A stretch of DNA of 64,000 nt, taken from Octopus vulgaris. Taxonomy: Eukaryota. The translations under genes and the position numbers were made by a program. The notes beneath the pieces were generated by a model. It was not told where the DNA came from and made no database searches. It worked only from the letters and a program-made list of their open reading frames with translations. Position 1 is the stretch's first letter. Each line of letters opens with the position of its first letter. The stretch lies in the NCBI GenBank assembly GCA_951406725.2, contig OX597823.1, positions 11,284,001-11,348,000 of the forward strand. Reading direction: 5' to 3'. Shown one piece after another: positions 10,441 to 60,461 of this stretch.

Positions 10441-10460
10441 ACATTCATATATATACTATA

Positions 10461-10875
10461 GGCACAGGAGTGGCTGTGTGGTAAGTAGCTTGCTAACCAA
10501 CCACATGGTTCCGGGTTCAGTCCCACTGCATGGCATCTTGGGCAAGTGTCTTCTGCTATAGCCCCGGGCCGACCAATGCCTTGTGAGTGGATTTGGTAGA
10601 CGGAAACTGAAAGAAGCCTGTCGTATATATGTATATATATATATGTATGTATGTGTGTGTATATATTTGTGTGTCTGTGTTTGTCCCCCTAGCGTTGCTT
10701 GACAACCTTGCTGGTGTGTTTACGTCCCCGTCACTTAGCGGTTCGGCAAAAGAGACTGATAGAATAAGTACTGGGTTTACAAAGAATAAGTTCCGGGGTC
10801 GATTTGCTCGACTAAAGGCGGTGCTCCAGCATGGCCGCAGTCAAATGACTGAAACAAGTAAAAGAGTAAAAGAGT
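10461..10875 (+). mobile_element. SINE family A
   Basis: Full consensus. Confidence 0.93.
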
Positions 10876-10909
10876 ATACTTGTGTGTGTGTGTGTGTGTG
10901 TGTGAATGT

Positions 10910-12114: not shown

Positions 12115-12119
<5 letters not shown>

Positions 12120-12416
12120 AGGGACTAAAGCCATCTGAATATGGCTAGGGACAGGGCAGGGTGGTGGGGGTGTTACTGTTGCATTTAGCCCCAGGCGAAC
12201 ATCGACGTCACCAGAAAGGCTCGACACCGTCACGGTGCCCTAAACCTGCAAAGGGAGGTAATTCCCCGATTACCTCCCTTTGCAGGTTTAGGGCACCGTG
12301 ACGGTGTCGAGCCTTTCTGGTGACGTCGATGTTCGCCTGGGGCTAAATGCAACAGTAACACCCCCACCACCCTGCCCTGTCCCTAGCCATATTCAGATGG
12401 CTTTAGTCCCTTATGT
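12115..12416. repeat. Perfect palindrome with 148-bp arms and a 6-bp spacer
   Basis: Arms 12115-12262 and 12269-12416, spacer tccccg; the ORF track shows the same 40-aa peptide on both strands. Confidence 0.96.
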
Positions 12417-29948: not shown

Positions 29949-30966
29949 GTGTGTGTGTGTGTGGTGTGTATGTCTATTTGTATGAATGTATGTGTTATGT
30001 TGAGTGCACTCAAATTACCTTGATCAGTCACCTCTATACTTCCCTGCTGTCTAGCAACTGCTGCATAAATGTTTTAAAAGTTCTGCATTTCCTTCTTTTA
30101 CCATGTTCTGTTCCTCATAGTAATAGCTGATGTTTAGCTTTGTTGTTTCTTGCAACCAGTGTCCCACAAGCTATATATATACATATATCAATTAGGTTTG
30201 AGCTCACTGTCACCTTTAAAAATATTTAAAGTTCAGGAAATACCCAGCCCTATGAAAAGCTAAAATTCTTTTGTATATTGAAAAGTACTGCAGTAACTGT
30301 AACTCTATCAGTCTATCAAATATTCTCATAGCCCACTGACATTGAAGTTTTTGATATTTATAATTCAAAGGGTAGATGAATAGCAAAAACAACTGACAGT
30401 TGGATTAAATACCTCACCGTATTTAGATTTTTTCCTCCGAAATCCAAGGTTCAGAACTTCAGAAATAGCTTTGCTATGAGTTTCAAGATTTTCTACAATT
30501 TTGATCTGTGCCCAAGCAATTGCATATAAGTTATCTTGTCTCAGTCTTTTGGTTGACAAGTGTGTCACATTTTGTTTTTGCTTTTTTTTAAATCAATACA
30601 TCGAAGCTACAATTGGAAAAATAGATACAAAATAGTGAAAAGATACAAAGATCTAAGGTATATTATGTATCTGAATGAATTTGAAGGTTTATTAAAATAA
30701 CGAATAAAGAACATTTTTCATTTAACTCTCACCTTGGTTCGATACTTCTTTCTCACTTGTTGTAGTGTTTGTTTTGCTATAAGCCATCAAAAGGGTTCCT
30801 ACATCATTGCATGATCTGTTAGAAATAGCAACTAAGTTTCCCACAAATCATACTATCATCAAAAAGGAAATGCATATTTGATATGTATCCCTAGATACTC
30901 TATGTCAATGATAGAGCTTCTATGCAGTCTTTCAACCTAGAAAAGTGATCAAATTTTACTCAAATA

Positions 30967-31375
30967 GGCACAGGAGTGGCTGTGTGGTAAGTAGCTTGCT
31001 AACCAACCACATGGTTCCGGGTTCAGTCCCACTGCGTGGCATCTTGGGCAAGTGTCTTCTGCTATAGCCCTGGGCCGACCAATGCCTTGTGAGTGGATTT
31101 GGTAGACGGAAGCTGAAAGAAGCCTGTCGTATATATGTTTATATATATATGTATATATGTGTGTGTGTGTGTGTGTGTTTGTCCCCCTAGCATTGCTTGA
31201 CAACCGATGCTGGTGTGTTTACGTCCCCGTCACTTAGCGGTTCGGCAAAAGAGACCGATAGAATAAGTACTGGGCTTACAAAGAATAAGTCCCGGGGTCG
31301 ATTTGCTCGACTAAAGGCGGTGCTCCAGCATGGCCGCAGTCAAATGACTGAAACAAGTAAAAGAGTAAAAGAGTA
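30967..31375 (+). mobile_element. SINE family A
   Basis: Full consensus. Confidence 0.93.
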
Positions 31376-31825
31376 AATAATGTGCCAAAGACACATTGGT
31401 TATGTAGTCCTAGATACAGTATTTCTATGATGCTTCTACTCAGTCACTCAACGTGCTAGAAATAGCAAATCTCCCCCTTTTGGTTTAAATGAAAAAGGGC
31501 ACATTAGATAAGCATGATATAACACACACACATATACGTGCATGACATAAAACATGTATCCATATTTATAATCCATGTGTACACAAATGCACTTACACGT
31601 GCACACACATACTCGGCAAATTTAACACTTACAAAGAGCATTTCATCCATTATTTGGGAAGTTGTTAAAATAGAAGAAAATCATTCAGGTTATAGATGCC
31701 GCTGCTGGCTCTTAGGAGGCTGACAGTACAAACAACAAAGTAAGGTCTTTGTTGTTTTTGTTGTGACTGTTGGTTAGTTTCCAGTCAGCTTGATCAAAAG
31801 CATAACCATCTTGATATTTTTGTAT

Positions 31826-49660: not shown

Positions 49661-50447
49661 CGAAACAAAAAAAAAATGAACATTAGAAACAAATTCGCTT
49701 CTTCTTTTAATGATTTCACTCATTAAACTGTTTGGCGATGGGTTCATGAGTTAACTTGAATGACATGGTATTTACATTATCAATTGATCACTTGATAAGA
49801 AATCTTCAAATATAAATGTCATTTAGTAGTTAAAAACTTTATTTTGTTAATTCTATAATTTCCTCAATCTTCATCTCATTTACCTTCACCTTTGGTCAGT
49901 TTAATGATAATCAACAATTTTGCTTTCTTCTAATGATCTTATCCATAATTCCATAATATTTCCCAACACCATCTTACTCTTGCACACTTTGTAACCTTTG
50001 CAACCAAATGCTCATCAGATGTCAGCATCTTGCCTTAATTGGGAATAGCGTAGACATTTAATGAGTCATGACATCTTAGCATTGATGATAAAAATCATAA
50101 GAAATTTGGATGAATTCTTTAGATTCAGTTTTCAACAAGATTTGTCTGAAAAAAACACAGTAGCTTTCAGTGCAATAACAACAGAGAACACAAGCAAAAT
50201 GATGACATTTCAAAAATGTAAATGTTGATGGGTATTTTTGTATGAAAACAAACACATATAATGCATACCTATCAGTTTGCCTATCTATCTATACATATCA
50301 ATCTATTTGTCTGTGTGTCTAGAGAAAAAGGAAGAGTGAATGAAAGAAAATGGGGGGGGGGGTCTCAGTCATTGGAGTGCAAGCATGCCATACACTGTCT
50401 TTAGTTGATTATATAAACCTCAATACTTATTTTAGTGAATTATATTT

Positions 50448-50766
50448 ATTGACTGGCCTCGTGCCGGTGGCACGTAAAAAGCTCAATCCGTCCATGGCCG
50501 TTTGCCAGCCTCGCCTGGCCCCGTGCCGGCGGCACGTAAAAAGCACCATCCGTCCGTGGCCGTTTGCCAGCTCCGGGTGGCACGTAAAAAGCAACCACTA
50601 CACTCACGGAGTGGTTGGCGTTAGGAAGGGTATCCAACCATAGAAACACTGCCAGATCAGACTGGGCCTGATGCAGCCTTCTGGCTTCACAGACCCCCAG
50701 TTGAACCATCCAACCCATGCTAGCATGGAAAGCGGACGCTAAATGATGATGATGATGATGATGATG
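50448..50766 (+). mobile_element. Family B element
   Basis: 3 internal units and a (GAT)n tail. Confidence 0.88.
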
Positions 50767-50868
50767 AACAGCTAAATTACATTATATTTACACAAAATGT
50801 AAATATAAGCGCATAGAAAAATCTGGACACAATGCACACTCACACACACATACCATATATGAATATAT

Positions 50869-50975
<107 letters not shown>

Positions 50976-52191
50976 CATACATACATATGTATGTGTGAGA
51001 GAGAGAGATAGGCTTCCACACAAATTCTGTCTACTAAGTCCACTCAGGATGTATTAGTCAACACAAGGCCGCAGTCAGACATGTATCCAAGGAGCCAGAC
51101 AGTGGAATATTCCACTATTTTATTTTTGTAACAAATTTATTTCAGCAAAAATCTTTACACTTTATGATTTGATATCTCCATGCAGTCATTCACCCTGTTG
51201 CAAATGGTAGCTAAATATCCCTCTTAAGCATACTCTATTAACTTAAAATTAAAACAGTTTAATGCCAGATATACAACATTACTGGATGGTCACTGCCAGA
51301 ATCGCTTTGATCATAAGCCTTCTAAGTCAGGAATCATTTAGGGCTTAAAACAACAATAATATCAATATTGAATCACAGGTAAAACTACTTTTTTTTTTTT
51401 GCCGATGAATCATTACTATTAAGTAACAAGTAAATTAATTATTCATCTAGCTTTTCACTTCATATCTAATTTATAAATGAAACAAAGGATAACTCTTGTG
51501 CTTGAGTAAACATAATGTGGGTGGGTGGGCAGTGATAGGGTGGATGAATGGTGGTGATGGGCTGAAGGCTCGTTATGGGGATTAATTATGGGTTGGTGAA
51601 CAAAGTTAGGAATGAGGCTAGAGGAACTTCCGAGAGAAGTACTGCTATGATATAAAACTAGCTTGATAAAATAGTAGTGGTGATGGAAGTGGTGGTGGTG
51701 ATGGAAAAGAGAAACACTAGTTAGTTACTTGGTTAATCAGCTTATTTTCATTTAACTGATTTTGCTCATTGAACTATGGGGGATGCTGGGGCATCACCTT
51801 CAAAGATATAGTTCTTTAAACCACTTTCCCCCACTTCTCCATATCCCTGATCCAGCTGACTTATGATCCGAAACATCCCAGTCATGAACCTCATGCTATT
51901 TATTAAGATACAGTGAACTTTGCACAACATTATCTAATTTGTCTTCCAGTTTCTTTTAAAGATAGCTAGGTGTAATTTGAGGGAGATTTCGATGTTATTT
52001 AGTTTAGCCCAAAGTTTAACCCTTATTGAACAAATTTACTGCCAATGGTGTTCCACTCATGACCATTGTGTGTTTTTATACATTTGGGTCTGTACTGTCT
52101 CAATGTATCTTTTTTGGAAGGAATTGATTAGGAAGCTATTTAGATGCTAATTCTAGAAGTTGATGGATTGCTTAGTGGTAGTCATATAGGA

Positions 52192-52536
52192 ATTACGGAG
52201 GTGTACTCGCATAGCAAGTGATTTGATCTGAGATCGTGTGCTGGAACGAAAACAATTGCAGCGTGGAAGGTGTTTGTAAGCCATTTAAGAAACACACAAA
52301 AACCGTTAGATTCACTTCAACATTTAAATTTGATTTACCAAAATATTTTCGTCACTAAAATCCGTGACCTGTTCACTGACAAAAATCCATGCAGCACGGA
52401 TTTTTGTCAGTGAACAGGTCGCGGATCTTATAGCGACGAAAATATTTTGACAAATTAAACTTAAATGTTGAAGTGAATCTAACGGCTTTTGTGTGTTTCT
52501 TAAATGGCTTACAAACACCTTCCACGCTGCAATTGT
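52192..52536. mobile_element. Palindromic Penelope-like-type insertion (P4) with 13-bp TSD
   Basis: Arms at about 52252-52392 and 52394-52536; TSD tagtcatatagga at 52179-52191 and 52537-52549. Confidence 0.85.
52403..52454 (+). ncRNA. Hammerhead ribozyme-like motif with a G3-C8 core variant
   Basis: TTTGTCA GTGAACA G GTCGC ggatcttata GCGAC GAAA ATAT TT TGACAAA; mirror copy on the minus strand at 52334-52383. Confidence 0.6.
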
Positions 52537-53060
52537 TAGTCATATAGGAGTTTTTATCGTAACCAAGTAGAAAGAACTTCAATAGGACATGATAAATAGA
52601 TGAAGTGAAGGTTTCCTTATGTTCTGAAAAGGAAGCCCAACATGTGTTGTATTTGAGGTAACCAGTATAATGTAAACTGGTATGCAATGATTCACTGAAT
52701 GCTCTTATTGAGCAGATCTCTGCTCTTTAAATGCATTTAAGCCCTTTTCTGTTTTAAGGCAGTAGGTTGCAATTTAAAAGAGATTCCATTGCTATTTCTT
52801 TGAGATTCAGCAACAATGCTGAAACTTTGGCTTGAATAGTAGTTGGTTGTGATGTTCTGTCTTTAAGTTATTTAATTAGGTTTGATTATCAAACTTTTGA
52901 TAGGTTAAAAACTCCTTGGATGAAAAATGGCTGAATGCTACTTGCTGGACTCAAGCCACGGTTCTTCTGTAACACATACAGATATGCTACCAATTACACT
53001 AAAACAGCCTACCTTTTTGTTTCTATTAAATTTAATAATTTAATCTTACCAGTGAAAATG

Positions 53061-53463
53061 TTTTACTCTTTTACTTGTTTCAGTCATTTGACTGCAACCA
53101 TGCTGGAGCACTGCCCTTAGTCGAACAAATCAACCCCAGGGCTTATTCTTTGTAAGCCTAGTACTTATTCTATCGGTCTCTTTTGCTGAACCACTAAGTT
53201 ACGGGGACATAAACACACTAGCATTGGTTGTCAAGCGATGGTGGGGGAACAAACACAGACACACAAGCATACATGCACGTGCACACTCATACACACACAC
53301 ATCGGGCTTCTTTCAGTTTCCGTCTACCAAATCCACTCACAAGGCTTCAGTAGGCCCGAGGCTATAGTAGAAGACACTTGCCCAAAGTGGCACACAGTGG
53401 GACTGAACTTGGAACCATGTGGTTGGCAAGCAAGCTAATTACCCACATAGCCATTCCTGCACC
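53061..53463 (-). mobile_element. SINE family A
   Basis: Diverged full copy. Confidence 0.9.
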
Positions 53464-53479
53464 TATGCACAAAGTAACT

Positions 53480-53615
53480 TTTCAACCATATGGTTTCTGG
53501 TTCAGTCTCATTGTGCAGCATCTTGGGAAATTAAATCTTCTACTACAGTATGGGGCCAAGAAATGCCTTGTAGGTGAATTTGGTTGACAGAAACTGTGGA
53601 AGCCTGTTGTATGTA

Positions 53616-53652
<37 letters not shown>

Positions 53653-53895
53653 GTGTGTGTGTGTGTGTGTTATAAATGTCTGTGTGTCTTGGTGTTTTGT
53701 CTCCCTCCCAGTCAGTGTTCACTTACCTATGTTCCTGTAACTTAATAATTTGGCAAGAGAGACAAATAGAATAGTTATCAGACTTTAAAGATACTGTTGC
53801 AGTCAACAAAGATACTGTTGTTGTTCAAATAAGATCTTCAAGGCAGAGCCCCAGCATGACTATAGTCCAGTGACTGAAATAAGTAAAAGGCAAAG
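53480..53895 (+). mobile_element. Old SINE family A-related copy
   Basis: Degenerate head, (TG)n and tail tgactgaaataagtaaaag. Confidence 0.7.
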
Positions 53896-54422
53896 GGTTT
53901 TTGAAACAGAACAGATCACCTCTTGTAACAACATACAAACCTATCTTATTTTAGGAATTGAACTGGTTAGCTAGGAAACTACTATTTTCAATTTTTTTAA
54001 AAATAATCACAAAATCGTTTTTGTCTTCTGACACTAGTGATATCATGAAAAAAAAAAACAATTGTAATTAAGACATTTAATTGAGATTTTTAATGCATGA
54101 TGGATAAGGTATTTATCATGAGAGGCCAATAGACAGTGTTCGGTGAAAGATCCAGGGACAGATGGATGGGTCAACCAAATAGTATAAAGCTAAGCATCAC
54201 AGATATCACATAGTCAAGTGGCAGATTAATACATTTGCATTGTTGTAAAGGACAAACTAGTAGTGATAGATGAGTAATGTATCACATCTGAATCAATGTT
54301 ACCATTTGATGATCTCTGTCAAGATTTTTGACTTAGAAACAAGACCACATACATTTTTTTGGGGTGGTTTTTTTGGATGAGAGAAGTATAATTGATTACA
54401 TCATCCCAGTACATATGGTAGT

Positions 54423-54798
54423 GGAGGCGCAATGGCCCAGTGGTTAGGGCAGCGGACTCGCGGTCATAGGATCGCAGTTTTGATTCCCAGTTTTGAGTGT
54501 TTATTGAGTGAAAACACCTAAAGCTCCACGAGGCTCCGGCAGGGGGGGGGGGTGATCCCTGCTGTACTCTTTCACCACAACTTTCTCTCACCCTTACTTC
54601 CCGTTTCTGTTGTACCCGTATTTCAAAGGGCCGGCCTTGTCACTCTCTGTGTCACGCTGAATATCCCCGAGAACTACGTTAAGGGTACATGTGTCTGTGG
54701 AGTGCTCAGCCACTTACACGTTAATTTCACGAGCAGGCTGTTCCGTTGATTCGGATCAACCAGAACCCTCGTCGTCGTAACCGAAGGAGTGCTTCCCA
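54423..54798 (+). mobile_element. SINE family C with 12-bp TSD
   Basis: agtacatatggt at 54408-54419 and 54799-54810. Confidence 0.92.
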
Positions 54799-57475
54799 AG
54801 TACATATGGTTAGTACTTTATTTTATTGCCCCCTCTTGCCTGTGGAATTTGAACTTATACCATAAAGTACTGCAGTTGGCTTAATTGACCATAGTGTTTA
54901 CATCGAAATATGTGATGTTATTGCCTATGCATAAAAAAAAATTATTACTTCAGTAAATAATGAAAGAACAGTTTAATGTGCAGATACTAATTTACAAGCC
55001 AAGCTTTGGATCAATTACCAAATACATCGATAAATTTACTAATGAAGCATCCATGAGTTTGAAGTAACTATGAAGTTAGATTGTCAAATTATTGTAGTCA
55101 ATATATCACAGAATTATAACTGTCAATTTATTTGGATAAAAATATTAAAAGATTGTAAGTTATTTTAATATAAATTAATTTTTTGCTCAATTATGTTTAT
55201 TATTTCAATAATATAAAACAATTTTTATAAATAATAACTAAAAATTGAAAAAAAAACAGTCATTCATATTGCTTTGTTGTTATATGCTAGACAGACTCCA
55301 CGAAGTATAAGTTGTAGGTTCAATATCACTTTATGGCAAAAATAGCTTGTAAATTTTAGGTTGAAACATTCTGATTTGATATACTAAGTCTAAACGTGTA
55401 ACTAAGTTTAATAATAATTTACAACTAAATTAGAAGGAAATTGCCATTATGTGTTTTTTACTGTGAAGTAACTTATTTAAGAAAGTAAAGAAGAAACTAA
55501 ACATTGTAATATATTTCTGAAACCTTATTGCCTTTATTTTCATCCCATCTGTTTAGTTGAGGGAGCTATGATAATGAGGGAGCTATGATAATGAATATAT
55601 AGCTATAAATCTATTGGTAGTATTTGAGAAAAGAAATCACTCAGAGATGCTATCCACCTGAAAATCAATGGTTTAGTTAGTGTTAATATAATTAGTGTGT
55701 CCACATTTAACTATGGTTTATGCACACTAACTTAAATATATTAACCACATATGTAGACTAAAGTAACTATTGTTTTTCATGGCATCTCTAAGTTACTTAT
55801 CCTTTAAATAATTCTACTTTTCTATGCGAACCAATCTTGTAGACTTAATGATTCTCCTGTAACTACTTCAGCAAATTGGTTAAGTCTGTACTTCACTGAT
55901 GAGTTTATAATATTCAAACATACATGTAGTTATTTCCCTTACTTGATACACTATTTAAAATATTATTTAGTTATTAAATAAAATTATTTTTTCCTCATTG
56001 CTTAATTATTTCCAGCTTGAGTCAAAATTGTTCTGTCCATAAATTATTCCAAAGTAGATTAGATCTAAGCCACATTGATGCCATTTATTATTCAGAGACT
56101 GATGCCAAGTTATAATTTTCAGAGTTTTGTTAACTAAGTTGTTATCAACTAAATATTATATCCATTGTTAGTTTTATTTCTTTTAGGTTGTCAATACTTA
56201 ATGGTTATTTTTATAACAAATGTATTGATTGGAATTATAAAATATTTAACTCACTTTTCTAATTAAAAAATGTAATGAACCAATTTTTCACATGAATATT
56301 TCATAATAAAGACTTAAAAACCTTTTATACGTTTGGCCAAACAAGCTTTACAGATTCTAGATCTGTATTAGAGACATGATCAACAATTAAAAAAAGAAAA
56401 TCCTTTTAAAAATTCTGCAATCTATTTTTGTTGCAAATGGATCTTTCCATTTTTATAAACATCAAGTATAATTCGAGAGAAATGTTGCTGCTACTTTTAG
56501 TAGATGGAGTAACATGGGAAAAGTTTAATGACTGGTTAGTTGAATCAGTTTAAGGACTGGAAATCTAAAATATAATCAGATACTCTCTCATGTTTTTTAC
56601 AATGTAGGGCCACTCTAGAAATAGCAGCCAAATCTCTTTCAAATCACATCTACCATTTAAAATCTGAAGGAAGGAAACATTGGAATATTTGTTCTACATG
56701 CATTTGTGTTCAACAAAAATATTAGCAGCTAATCACAGCTGGAATGTTTTGTTATAGGTTTACCCTATCAGGGTTGAACTAAAAGACAACATCAGCAATT
56801 GAGGTTTTACAGCTGAAACTAAATTGTGTCATAGCTCTGTTTTATGTAATAACTAACTGCAAAATGGATTCTCGTGAGAGAAAATCAAGCAATGAACATA
56901 AGTAGTGGACTTCCCTTTTCTTATTATCTTGTAGATGTGTGTTTTTATGACAACTTCATGAATGTGTTGCCTTAGGCTAAATACATACCATGAGATTAGA
57001 TACCATATCATCTTCTCCAAATCAATATATGTGTGTATGTGTGTGTGTATATATATATATATATATGTAACCTATATTGGCTTCTAGCATCATATTTCTG
57101 ACAGTTGAGGTAGTCTGGAATTTACTGAATCATTGGCGATATTTACAGATGTCCTAAACATTTAGCTAGGTTTCTTTGATATCCTACATGGCTATATAGG
57201 ATTGTTGACTCAATAGGATTCGTGATAATGCATATCACATGTATTGTATATTTCATTTTAAATAGGCTCTGTGTTATAATAAAGAAGCTTTGATGTAAGC
57301 TCAGCCAATAATGTAAGTTATACTCTAGGCTTTATGATGGACATTATTTTTTGTTTTTGTTTTTTTTTACTGGGAAATGAAACATAGGCAACTTGGTAAA
57401 TTTTGTATATTGCTATGCAATTATTTTTAAAATCTCAAACAACATGACTCATTATATTGGGCCATATTTGATGTT

Positions 57476-59293: not shown

Positions 59294-60461
59294 CAGGGTG
59301 CATAAGATATTTGAGGACAGGTTTATGCTTATAAAAAAAGCTAATATATAATAACAGGTAATAGCTTCATCAAAAAATGCTATGAGGATAAAAATAAACC
59401 TTCTTTTCTATAATGCTATTCAATAAAGCCACCTGTCGTTTCTTCTGTTAACATTTTGATCTTGGTCGAAGTTTTTCTCGTTTGAGAAAAACCAAACTGA
59501 ATCTTCTGCTGGATTTTTCAGTTTATTTAAGAGCCTTTTAGATCTGATGTTTTTTATCTTTTATCTTTTACTTGTTTCAGTCATTTGACTGCGGCCATGC
59601 TGGAGCACCGCCTTTAGTCGAGCAAATCGACCCCGGGACTTATTCTTTGTAAGCCCAGTACTTATTCTATCGGTCTCTTTTGCCGAACCGCTAAGTGACG
59701 GGGACGTAAACACACCAGCATCGGTTGTCAAGCAATGCGAGGGGGACAAACACACAAACACACACACATACACACACATATATATATATATACATATATA
59801 CGACAGGCTTCTTTCAGTTTCCGTCTACCAAATCCACTCACAAGGCATTGGTCGGCCCGGGGCTATAGCAGAAGACACTTGCCCAAGATGCCACGCAGTG
59901 GGACTGAACCCGGAGCCATGTGGTTGGTTAGCAAGCTACTTACCACACAGCCACTCCTGCGCCTATAGTGTAGTGATTTTCTTTTGCTTTTTCAGACAAA
60001 TTGACCTTTCCTCATCATATAAGACTTATATCTGGTGTCTTCATGGACAACATTTCTGACTGTTCCTTCCAACACATGGAGTTCTTTTGCAATTGACCTC
60101 ATGGACTTTCTGGGATTGTAATCAAGGGTCTGTTGAACTTGCTAGATAAATTCAGGTGTTCTGATGATTTCAGATCATTTAGAATACTTTTTATACTTTG
60201 ATACTAGTGATACATTTCCATCTTCAGTCTCTAGCTCCTCACAAACATTGTAGCCGAAAGATCTGGCAACTTTTAAAAATTGAGATATTTCTAAATTACT
60301 ATGCTCAGCGTTTATAACCACAATAACAGCGTGCCTCTCAATTTCCTGACTAAGTTGAGGGTCTACCATTATTATTTTCTGAAACAAAGATTATGCAGAG
60401 TTAGCAAAAAATGCAGCAATGACCCAAAAAAGGTATATCCTCAAATAGCTTACGCACCCTG
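59294..60461 (-). mobile_element. Internally deleted Tc1/mariner-superfamily transposon
   Basis: TA|cagggtgcataagatatttgagga ... tcctcaaatagcttacgcaccctg|TA. The minus-strand HTH remnant reads RTPEFI*QVQQTLDYNPRKSMRSIAKELHV..TVRNVVHEDTRYKSY; no DDE/D domain is seen. Confidence 0.9.
59552..59963 (-). mobile_element. SINE family A nested in the mariner element
   Basis: Full consensus. Confidence 0.93.

What the first reader, a model, noticed from the sequence alone, without database searches (positions are those of the whole stretch)
52192..52536. Hammerhead-fold RNA with a natural compensatory G3-C8 core swap, duplicated in a TSD-flanked palindrome
Seen: a 345-bp insertion with a 13-bp TSD, most of it a palindrome with ~141-bp arms. 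Each arm reads stem I - GUGAACA - stem II - GAAA - AUAU - UU - stem I'. The arms differ in stem II (GUCGC/GCGAC vs GUCAC/GUGAC) and in stem I (Watson-Crick vs G-U), yet pairing is kept. Established: the hammerhead core is C3 U4 G5 A6 N7 G8 A9, C3 and G8 form a tertiary Watson-Crick pair, and Penelope-like elements carry minimal hammerheads in pLTRs that are often inverted. Inference: GUGAACA is exactly the C3G+G8C double swap, so this may be a ribozyme variant that CUGANGA-based searches miss, carried by a small mobile family. The palindromic AAAUAUUU helix-III region suggests it works as a dimer.
Basis: partly seen in the sequence, partly recalled or inferred. Interest (0 to 1): 0.85.

Follow-up and report, generated by a model that had tools for sequence, protein, structure and literature searches.

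The report
Penelope retrotransposon ribozyme with swapped core
This is a short back-to-back insertion of a Penelope-like retrotransposon whose roughly 8,000 genomic copies carry a hammerhead-shaped RNA with the core C3-G8 pair flipped to G3-C8, a likely but untested natural ribozyme variant that standard searches would miss.

Summary
The 345 bp are two head-to-head, 5'-truncated ends of an autonomous Penelope-like element (PLE; RT plus C-terminal GIY-YIG endonuclease) in the same genome. Each arm is the end of the pseudo-LTR plus the first codons of the ORF, and one arm carries the 60-nt PLE 'tail'. That layout and minimal hammerheads in pLTRs are known. The G3-C8 swap holds up. The sister PLE family, found by protein search, has C3-G8 at the same place, and a model built only from C3-G8 relatives ranks both arms first in the window. 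The swap is derived on an RT tree and fixed across subfamilies (8,298 exact core matches). I found only U3-A8 reported as a natural swap, but four key papers were unavailable. Cleavage is untested. Side result: copy ends suggest priming at both DNA nicks on capped, uncleaved sense RNA.

The parts
52179..52191 (.). Target-site duplication, left copy (13 bp)
52537..52549 (.). Target-site duplication, right copy
52192..52396 (-). Long arm: 3' end of the PLE pLTR plus ORF start, ending at the downstream of the two family 3' ends (includes tail); 91% identical to both pLTRs of full element L117
52389..52536 (+). Short arm: same sequence, starting at the family 5' boundary (ATGCAGC) and ending at the upstream 3' end (GCAATTGT)
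52192..52251 (-). PLE 'tail', 60 nt between the two preferred 3' ends (inferred RT start sites)
   Evidence: PMC11167929
52192..52284 (-). [quoted passage not shown]
52403..52454 (+). Minimal type I hammerhead motif: stem I 52403-09/52448-54, G3 52410, C8 52415, extra G 52417, stem II 52418-22/52433-37, GAAA 52438-41, AUAU, U16.1 52446, U17 52447; predicted cut 52447/52448
52334..52383 (-). Second hammerhead motif: G3 52376, C8 52371, predicted cut 52341/52340; stem I with two G-U pairs; its own predicted lowest-energy fold is not the hammerhead fold
52389..52396 (.). Head-to-head junction; about 8-nt self-complementary overlap; the junction differs from copy to copy

Best explanation
The 345 bp are two head-to-head, 5'-truncated ends of an autonomous Penelope-like retrotransposon, each carrying a hammerhead-shaped motif with a lineage-fixed G3-C8 pair that is predicted to self-cleave only weakly, as a dimer or with help from the element's protein. 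Shown: the parent element, the two 3' ends 60 nt apart, a sharp 5' boundary, TSDs of about 12 bp in AT-rich targets, and G3-C8 at the place where sister families have C3-G8. Inferred: the endonuclease nicks both strands about 12 bp apart. Each nick primes reverse transcription at one of two internal sites just inside the ORF. On a transcript that starts at the pLTR boundary the copy runs out after about 150 or 210 nt, and the two cDNAs join at their 5' ends by microhomology. The template was uncleaved, since both arms keep the whole ribozyme. Inferred: the swap keeps the 3-8 tertiary pair, and U rather than C at position 17 avoids a strong G3-C17 mispair. This genomic copy itself is probably inert.
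For: Parent: L117 has an inverted truncated copy, pLTR, ORF and pLTR with tail. The ORF shows YVDD, a CX3CxxC linker and GIY-YIG PF01541 at E 1.3e-05. Ends: in 100 loci chosen by core patterns (96 informative, 148 arms), 66 arms end at +140 to +154 and 70 at +195 to +214; 72 start within -5..+9 of the boundary; 51 of 96 loci hold both orientations. The base before AGATGCAGCA is C in 7 of 7 long copies and G in 14 of 18 short ones. Genome-wide, among non-C bases, the first 100 of 1,654 matches were G 63, T 27, A 10 (hand count; G vs A p about 1e-18), as expected for a cap-derived G. Swap: family B, found by protein (61% identity), has C3-G8 at the same place. In a 14-sequence alignment the 3-8 pair is CG 11 and GC 3, with none unpaired; 86% of cells pair, against 18-45% for slid controls. 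A covariance model from 14 C3-G8 sequences ranks both arms first in 64 kb (E about 2e-4; next 0.26). The RT tree puts A sister to B (100/99), with C3-G8 in 4 metagenome outgroups. In print: the engineered C3G/G8C double mutant is partly active in an anole PLE ribozyme (PMC11167929), and G3-C8 fares worse with C17 than with G17 (PMC3884650, 'data not shown').
Against: No cleavage data. The swap is a single evolutionary event (the 3 GC rows are one lineage). 13 of the 14 model sequences were retrieved with patterns borrowed from this family, so one search is partly circular. Only 3 of 148 arms start within 2 nt of the predicted cut, with no pile-up. The predicted lowest-energy fold pairs G3 with U17. 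The active dimer is barely more stable than two monomers (-27.4 vs -26.8 kcal/mol), and over-paired dimers are lower (-29 to -35; rough). The young sister family B is intact in many copies yet has C at position 9, so the core may be dispensable. PMC11167929 found cleavage unnecessary for insertion in vitro. The extra G could also come from microhomology or splicing, because the boundary also looks like a 3' splice site.
Confidence: 0.62

Rival explanations
1. Same retrotransposon origin, but the hammerhead is a dead relic or only a protein-binding structure. G3 and C8 were fixed by drift and their complementarity is a coincidence.
For: One event only. Copies derive from uncleaved RNA. Competing G3-U17 and 10-bp AAAAUAUUUU pairings exist. 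Family B thrives with C9. G3-G8 copies look over-represented: 26 of the first 100 of 553 position-8 variants, against 13 C3-C8 among the first 100 of 292 position-3 variants (hand counts; patterns differ in length), which may mean an unpaired intermediate once transposed. Naiad PLEs succeed without hammerheads (PMC8557442).
Against: Of 13 conserved core and closing positions, the family differs from the canon at exactly the two that form the known tertiary pair, and both changes are complementary (back-of-envelope chance about 0.4-1%). The core has one common allele across subfamilies while loop II has at least three with indels. Two decayed relatives only 70-80% identical read A3-C8 and G3-U8, each one transition from G3-C8, so the pair appears old (single copies). 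The 9 G3-G8 loci inspected share no clear subfamily signature.
Confidence: 0.3
2. The palindromes arise by self-priming (fold-back) on one template, possibly antisense, as proposed for rotifer Penelope elements, rather than by priming at both DNA nicks.
For: Arms usually share subfamily markers: loop II is the same in 9 of 10, 13 of 16 and 10 of 11 typed pairs in three locus sets. Junctions are self-complementary. The model is proposed in PMC3846280.
Against: A minority of pairs differ by multi-base subfamily indels (5 of 37 typed pairs, plus this copy), which needs two templates or later exchange. The two outer ends sit at two different fixed sites, and either arm, or both, can carry the tail. 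The anole PLE protein nicks and extends both strands in vitro (PMC11167929).
Confidence: 0.2
3. A self-contained non-autonomous unit (MITE, retrozyme or miRNA-like hairpin) that is copied as a 345-bp whole.
For: Many copies share the same length and layout. Rfam gives weak miRNA hairpin hits, far below gathering scores.
Against: The centre junction varies between copies. Solo arms, unequal arms and kilobase arms occur. The sequence is continuous with an RT-EN ORF. TSD length is variable.
Confidence: 0.03

Closest known systems
Minimal hammerheads of metazoan PLE pLTRs (Cervera & De la Pena 2014, PMC4209133; read: results, discussion, supplement file 2 parts 1-2 of 3)
   Same: Type I; extra nucleotide between 9 and 10.1; G10.1-C11.1; palindromic mini helix III; mostly dispersed truncated copies; opposite-strand pairs 100-700 bp apart.
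   Different: The core is G3-C8. The paper reports U3-A8 as its core covariant, and none of the 56 motifs in Fig. S3 starts with G3. Supplement file 1 could not be searched.
Anolis Poseidon PAc (Frangieh et al. 2024, PMC11167929; read parts 1, 2, 4 of 4)
   Same: Two RT start sites inside the ORF define the tail; AT-rich targets; both strands nicked and extended; uncleaved RNA is the template.
   Different: There C3G/G8C is an engineered rescue; here it is the natural family sequence. The tail is 60 nt, the ORF starts about 57 nt downstream of the cut site, and the protein has a CX3CxxC linker.
Neptune/Nematis-type C-terminal EN+ PLEs (Craig et al. 2021, PMC8557442; passages, section 11, supplement search) and Adineta Penelope (PMC3846280; passages)
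   Same: RT + C-terminal GIY-YIG, CX2-5CxxC linker, (TA)n bias, inverted 5'-truncated copy, optional tail, 8-10 bp TSDs in Adineta, Inr-like motif in the pLTR.
   Different: Clade not assigned (no reference set to tree against); DKG reads DKSG; TSD mode is 12 bp.
Natural hammerhead core variants (Perreault et al. 2011, PMC3088659; section 8 and passages)
   Same: Natural covariation at the 3-8 pair.
   Different: Only U3-A8 is named in the text read; the figure itself was not visible.

Membership tests
EN+ Penelope-like element | Single ORF with RT and C-terminal GIY-YIG endonuclease | tested here: met
   (GIY-YIG above Pfam cut-off; RT recognised by YVDD motif and homologs; RVT_1 only weak, on sister protein P0001)
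EN+ Penelope-like element | pLTRs overlapping the ORF start; tandem and inverted 5'-truncated copies | tested here: met
   L117, L118; L079-L086
EN+ Penelope-like element | Optional tail between two 3' ends | tested here: met
   136 of 148 arms end at one of two sites
EN+ Penelope-like element | Variable TSD, AT-rich or (TA)n targets | tested here: met
   19 of 30 with 9-14 bp TSD, 9 of 30 in (TA)n
Neptune or Nematis clade | CX2-5CxxC linker before GIY-YIG | tested here: met
   CQSNCAVC
Neptune or Nematis clade | RT phylogeny with named references | not tested
   No named reference proteins obtained (one search gave only EN fragments)
Minimal type I hammerhead | Stems I and II with covariation; U4 G5 A6, A9, G12 A13 A14, A15.1-U16.1, H17 | tested here: met
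   stem I is only 71% paired across single decayed copies
Minimal type I hammerhead | Canonical C3 and G8 (CUGANGA) | tested here: not met
   G3 and C8 instead; Watson-Crick 3-8 pair kept. Filed as a variant, not a canonical member
Minimal type I hammerhead | Palindromic helix III allowing a dimer | tested here: inconclusive
   AAUAUU palindrome present; active dimer only about 0.6 kcal/mol below two monomers
Minimal type I hammerhead | Self-cleavage after N17 | not testable with these tools
   No raw RNA reads; no pile-up of genomic 5' ends at the site
Non-LTR retrozyme | Head-to-tail tandem monomers | tested here: not met
   Short copies are head-to-head or solo

The most novel reading that the evidence does not exclude
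The first natural, catalytically active G3-C8 hammerhead, fixed in a retrotransposon lineage of about 8,000 copies and invisible to CUGANGA searches. Its sister families (C3-G8, C9 variant) form a natural experiment on core evolution. Its short palindromes record double-sided target priming on capped sense RNAs, sometimes two different molecules, which would explain how Penelope inverted ends form.
Probability: 0.3. Interest if true: 0.7.

Novelty: new variant of a known kind. Interest (0 to 1): 0.45.

Why it matters
If active, it widens the natural hammerhead core beyond C3-G8 and U3-A8. PLEs reported to lack ribozymes, and genome-wide ribozyme counts, were screened largely with CUGANGA-type descriptors and would need a re-run with any Watson-Crick pair at 3-8. 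Compensation of a tertiary pair in a transposon would also be rare evidence that PLE hammerhead function is selected in vivo, which is an open question. The thousands of short copies give base-level statistics on PLE priming sites, RNA 5' ends and template number.

Tried and rejected
Rfam: no hammerhead hit in 50000-55000. This is uninformative, because Rfam also missed canonical C3-G8 minimal motifs in 4 of 4 such test loci, and the C9 variant in L200. Sequencing runs: no RNA holder on record; contigs only. Laying four runs showed the core in loose-end letters of runs under two other organism labels, but nothing on starts, cleavage or splicing. PDB: one weak RT hit only. Earlier scan findings: none. 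Arm-to-arm stem II covariation was rejected as CpG decay. A G3-G8 intermediate subfamily was sought and is inconclusive. Metagenome scan: 31 loci, 5 with a scanner hit (4 C3-G8, 1 doubtful U3-A8 with C9), none G3-C8; many are short contigs. Literature: full-text searches for G3-C8/G3C8, C3G+G8C, GUGANC and related terms found only engineered cases. Lunse et al. (short-stem-III PLE hammerheads), Przybilski & Hammann 2007, Seehafer 2011 and Hammann 2012 were not held, so prior report of natural G3-C8 is not excluded. The bioRxiv retrozyme preprint was checked by passages only; its supplements were not seen. An octopus repeat-annotation paper lists active Penelope families and does not contain the word ribozyme (passages).

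Full report
Observation. The insertion, the 13-bp duplication, the long palindrome and both hammerhead-like readings are in the sequence as stated. One extra G lies between A9 and stem II. The two motifs point outward from the centre on opposite strands. The minus arm has a 60-nt extension.

Family. The genome (2.8 Gb; a database protein named for Octopus vulgaris matches it at 100%) holds thousands of copies: 8,298 exact matches to the core 15-mer against 3 for the control. The 30 best copies share the layout, but their centre junctions differ, and 2 of 30 have the extension at both ends. Nineteen of 30 have 9-14-bp duplications and 9 sit in (TA)n. Solo arms and long arms exist. So each palindrome is made at insertion, not copied as a unit.

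Parent. [quoted passage not shown] L117 is an inverted truncated copy, a pLTR, the ORF and a second pLTR with the extension. The extension runs directly into the ORF, whose first 31 codons lie at 52284-52192 on the minus strand. No fully open family-A copy from the start codon was seen: L117 and L118 stop early, and L099 has an open frame of 1,011 codons but lacks the start. This is the Penelope-like architecture described in PMC8557442 and PMC3846280 (passages). The CX3CxxC linker is of Neptune/Nematis type; the clade was not determined.

How the palindrome forms. I used 100 loci chosen by core patterns, not by ends (96 informative, 148 arms). 136 arms end at one of two sites 60 nt apart, 72 begin within -5..+9 of one boundary, and only 13 reach more than 10 nt upstream. 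Another 24 begin at +10..+14, partly an alignment artefact of subfamily indels. The two 3' ends match the two internal RT start sites shown for the anole element, which also nicks and extends both strands and uses uncleaved RNA (PMC11167929). At the 5' boundary long copies have C and short copies mostly G (14 of 18; 63 G, 27 T, 10 A in the first 100 of 1,654 non-C matches). This suggests a capped RNA starting there (inference). The site also resembles a splice acceptor, and microhomology could explain part of the G excess. Arms usually share subfamily markers (32 of 37 typed pairs), but 5 of 37 and this copy differ by subfamily alleles, which points to two templates at least sometimes. I infer priming at both nicks and joining of the two cDNAs at their 5' ends. 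Fold-back self-priming (PMC3846280) remains a rival.

The core swap. Family B was found by protein similarity alone (61% over the RT region). It has, about 100 nt before its start codon in both pLTRs, the same motif with C3 and G8, and different but pairing stems. Pattern searches found more C3-G8 relatives: 93 of the first 100 of 2,018 matches (hand count), including L192, which has the same stem I as family A. On 14 aligned sequences the 3-8 pair is CG in 11 and GC in 3; 86% of cells pair against 18-45% in slid controls; 5 pairs change on both sides, which 43 of 500 shuffles reach. A model built without family A ranks both arms first in the window, though 13 of its 14 sequences came from patterns borrowed from family A. 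The RT tree (19 rows, none dropped; L216 is a long branch, L214 partial) makes A and B sisters among C3-G8 outgroups, so G3-C8 is derived. It is constant across subfamilies whose loop II varies, and two decayed relatives fit an old origin. It is still one evolutionary event.

Against activity. Only 3 of 148 arms start near the predicted cut. The predicted fold extends stem I with G3-U17, the left arm misfolds, and over-paired dimers are more stable than the active one (the energy model included one U-U position and is rough). Family B is young and intact yet has C at position 9. G3-G8 copies may be in excess, but no subfamily was evident.

Literature. Minimal, dimer-type hammerheads in PLE pLTRs, the extra base after A9 and opposite-strand pairs are known (PMC4209133). 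Natural U3-A8 is known (PMC4209133; PMC3088659). C3G/G8C is known as a partly active engineered rescue (PMC11167929; PMC8495972 passage). I found no natural G3-C8 in six searches or among 56 motifs in the Cervera supplement. Four central papers were not held, including the survey of short-stem-III PLE hammerheads by Lunse et al., so novelty is uncertain.

Verdict. An ordinary Penelope insertion product carrying a real and possibly unreported core variant of a known ribozyme: new variant of a known kind, interest 0.45. PLE origin about 0.97; true homologous G3-C8 swap about 0.9; measurable cleavage about 0.6; not previously reported about 0.5.

Noticed in passing
L125, L200 (family B; G000:C5:115840523-115845895): Young sister PLE family with many open frames of about 1,310 codons, an asparagine-rich insert, and a hammerhead with C at position 9 (CUGAUGC); older copies (L235, L238) have A9 and UC at the cut site. 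A second possible core variant.
   Followed up: partly
window 12115-12416: Another palindrome, 302 bp and 98% perfect, next to (TA)n; no match to families A or B. Possibly a different PLE or a MITE.
   Followed up: no
window 16961 (-) and 61792 (-): Two canonical CUGANGA minimal-hammerhead-like motifs, probably from other PLE families.
   Followed up: no
window, e.g. 30964-31380, 10458-10876, 59550-59966; 52936-53008: A ~420-bp SINE-like repeat in more than a dozen copies at 85-96% identity, and a tRNA-like Rfam hit just above gathering score at 52936-53008.
   Followed up: no
L324:1545 (-), L325:1495 (+): Decayed relatives 70-80% identical to family A with A3-C8 and G3-U8 cores and a short loop II like the sister families.
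   Followed up: partly
L205:2497: Metagenome PLE relative with a U3-A8-like core and C at position 9.
   Followed up: no
P0119: A database protein named as a dynein regulatory subunit-like isoform contains a stretch 66% identical to this PLE RT: misannotation or exonised element.
   Followed up: no
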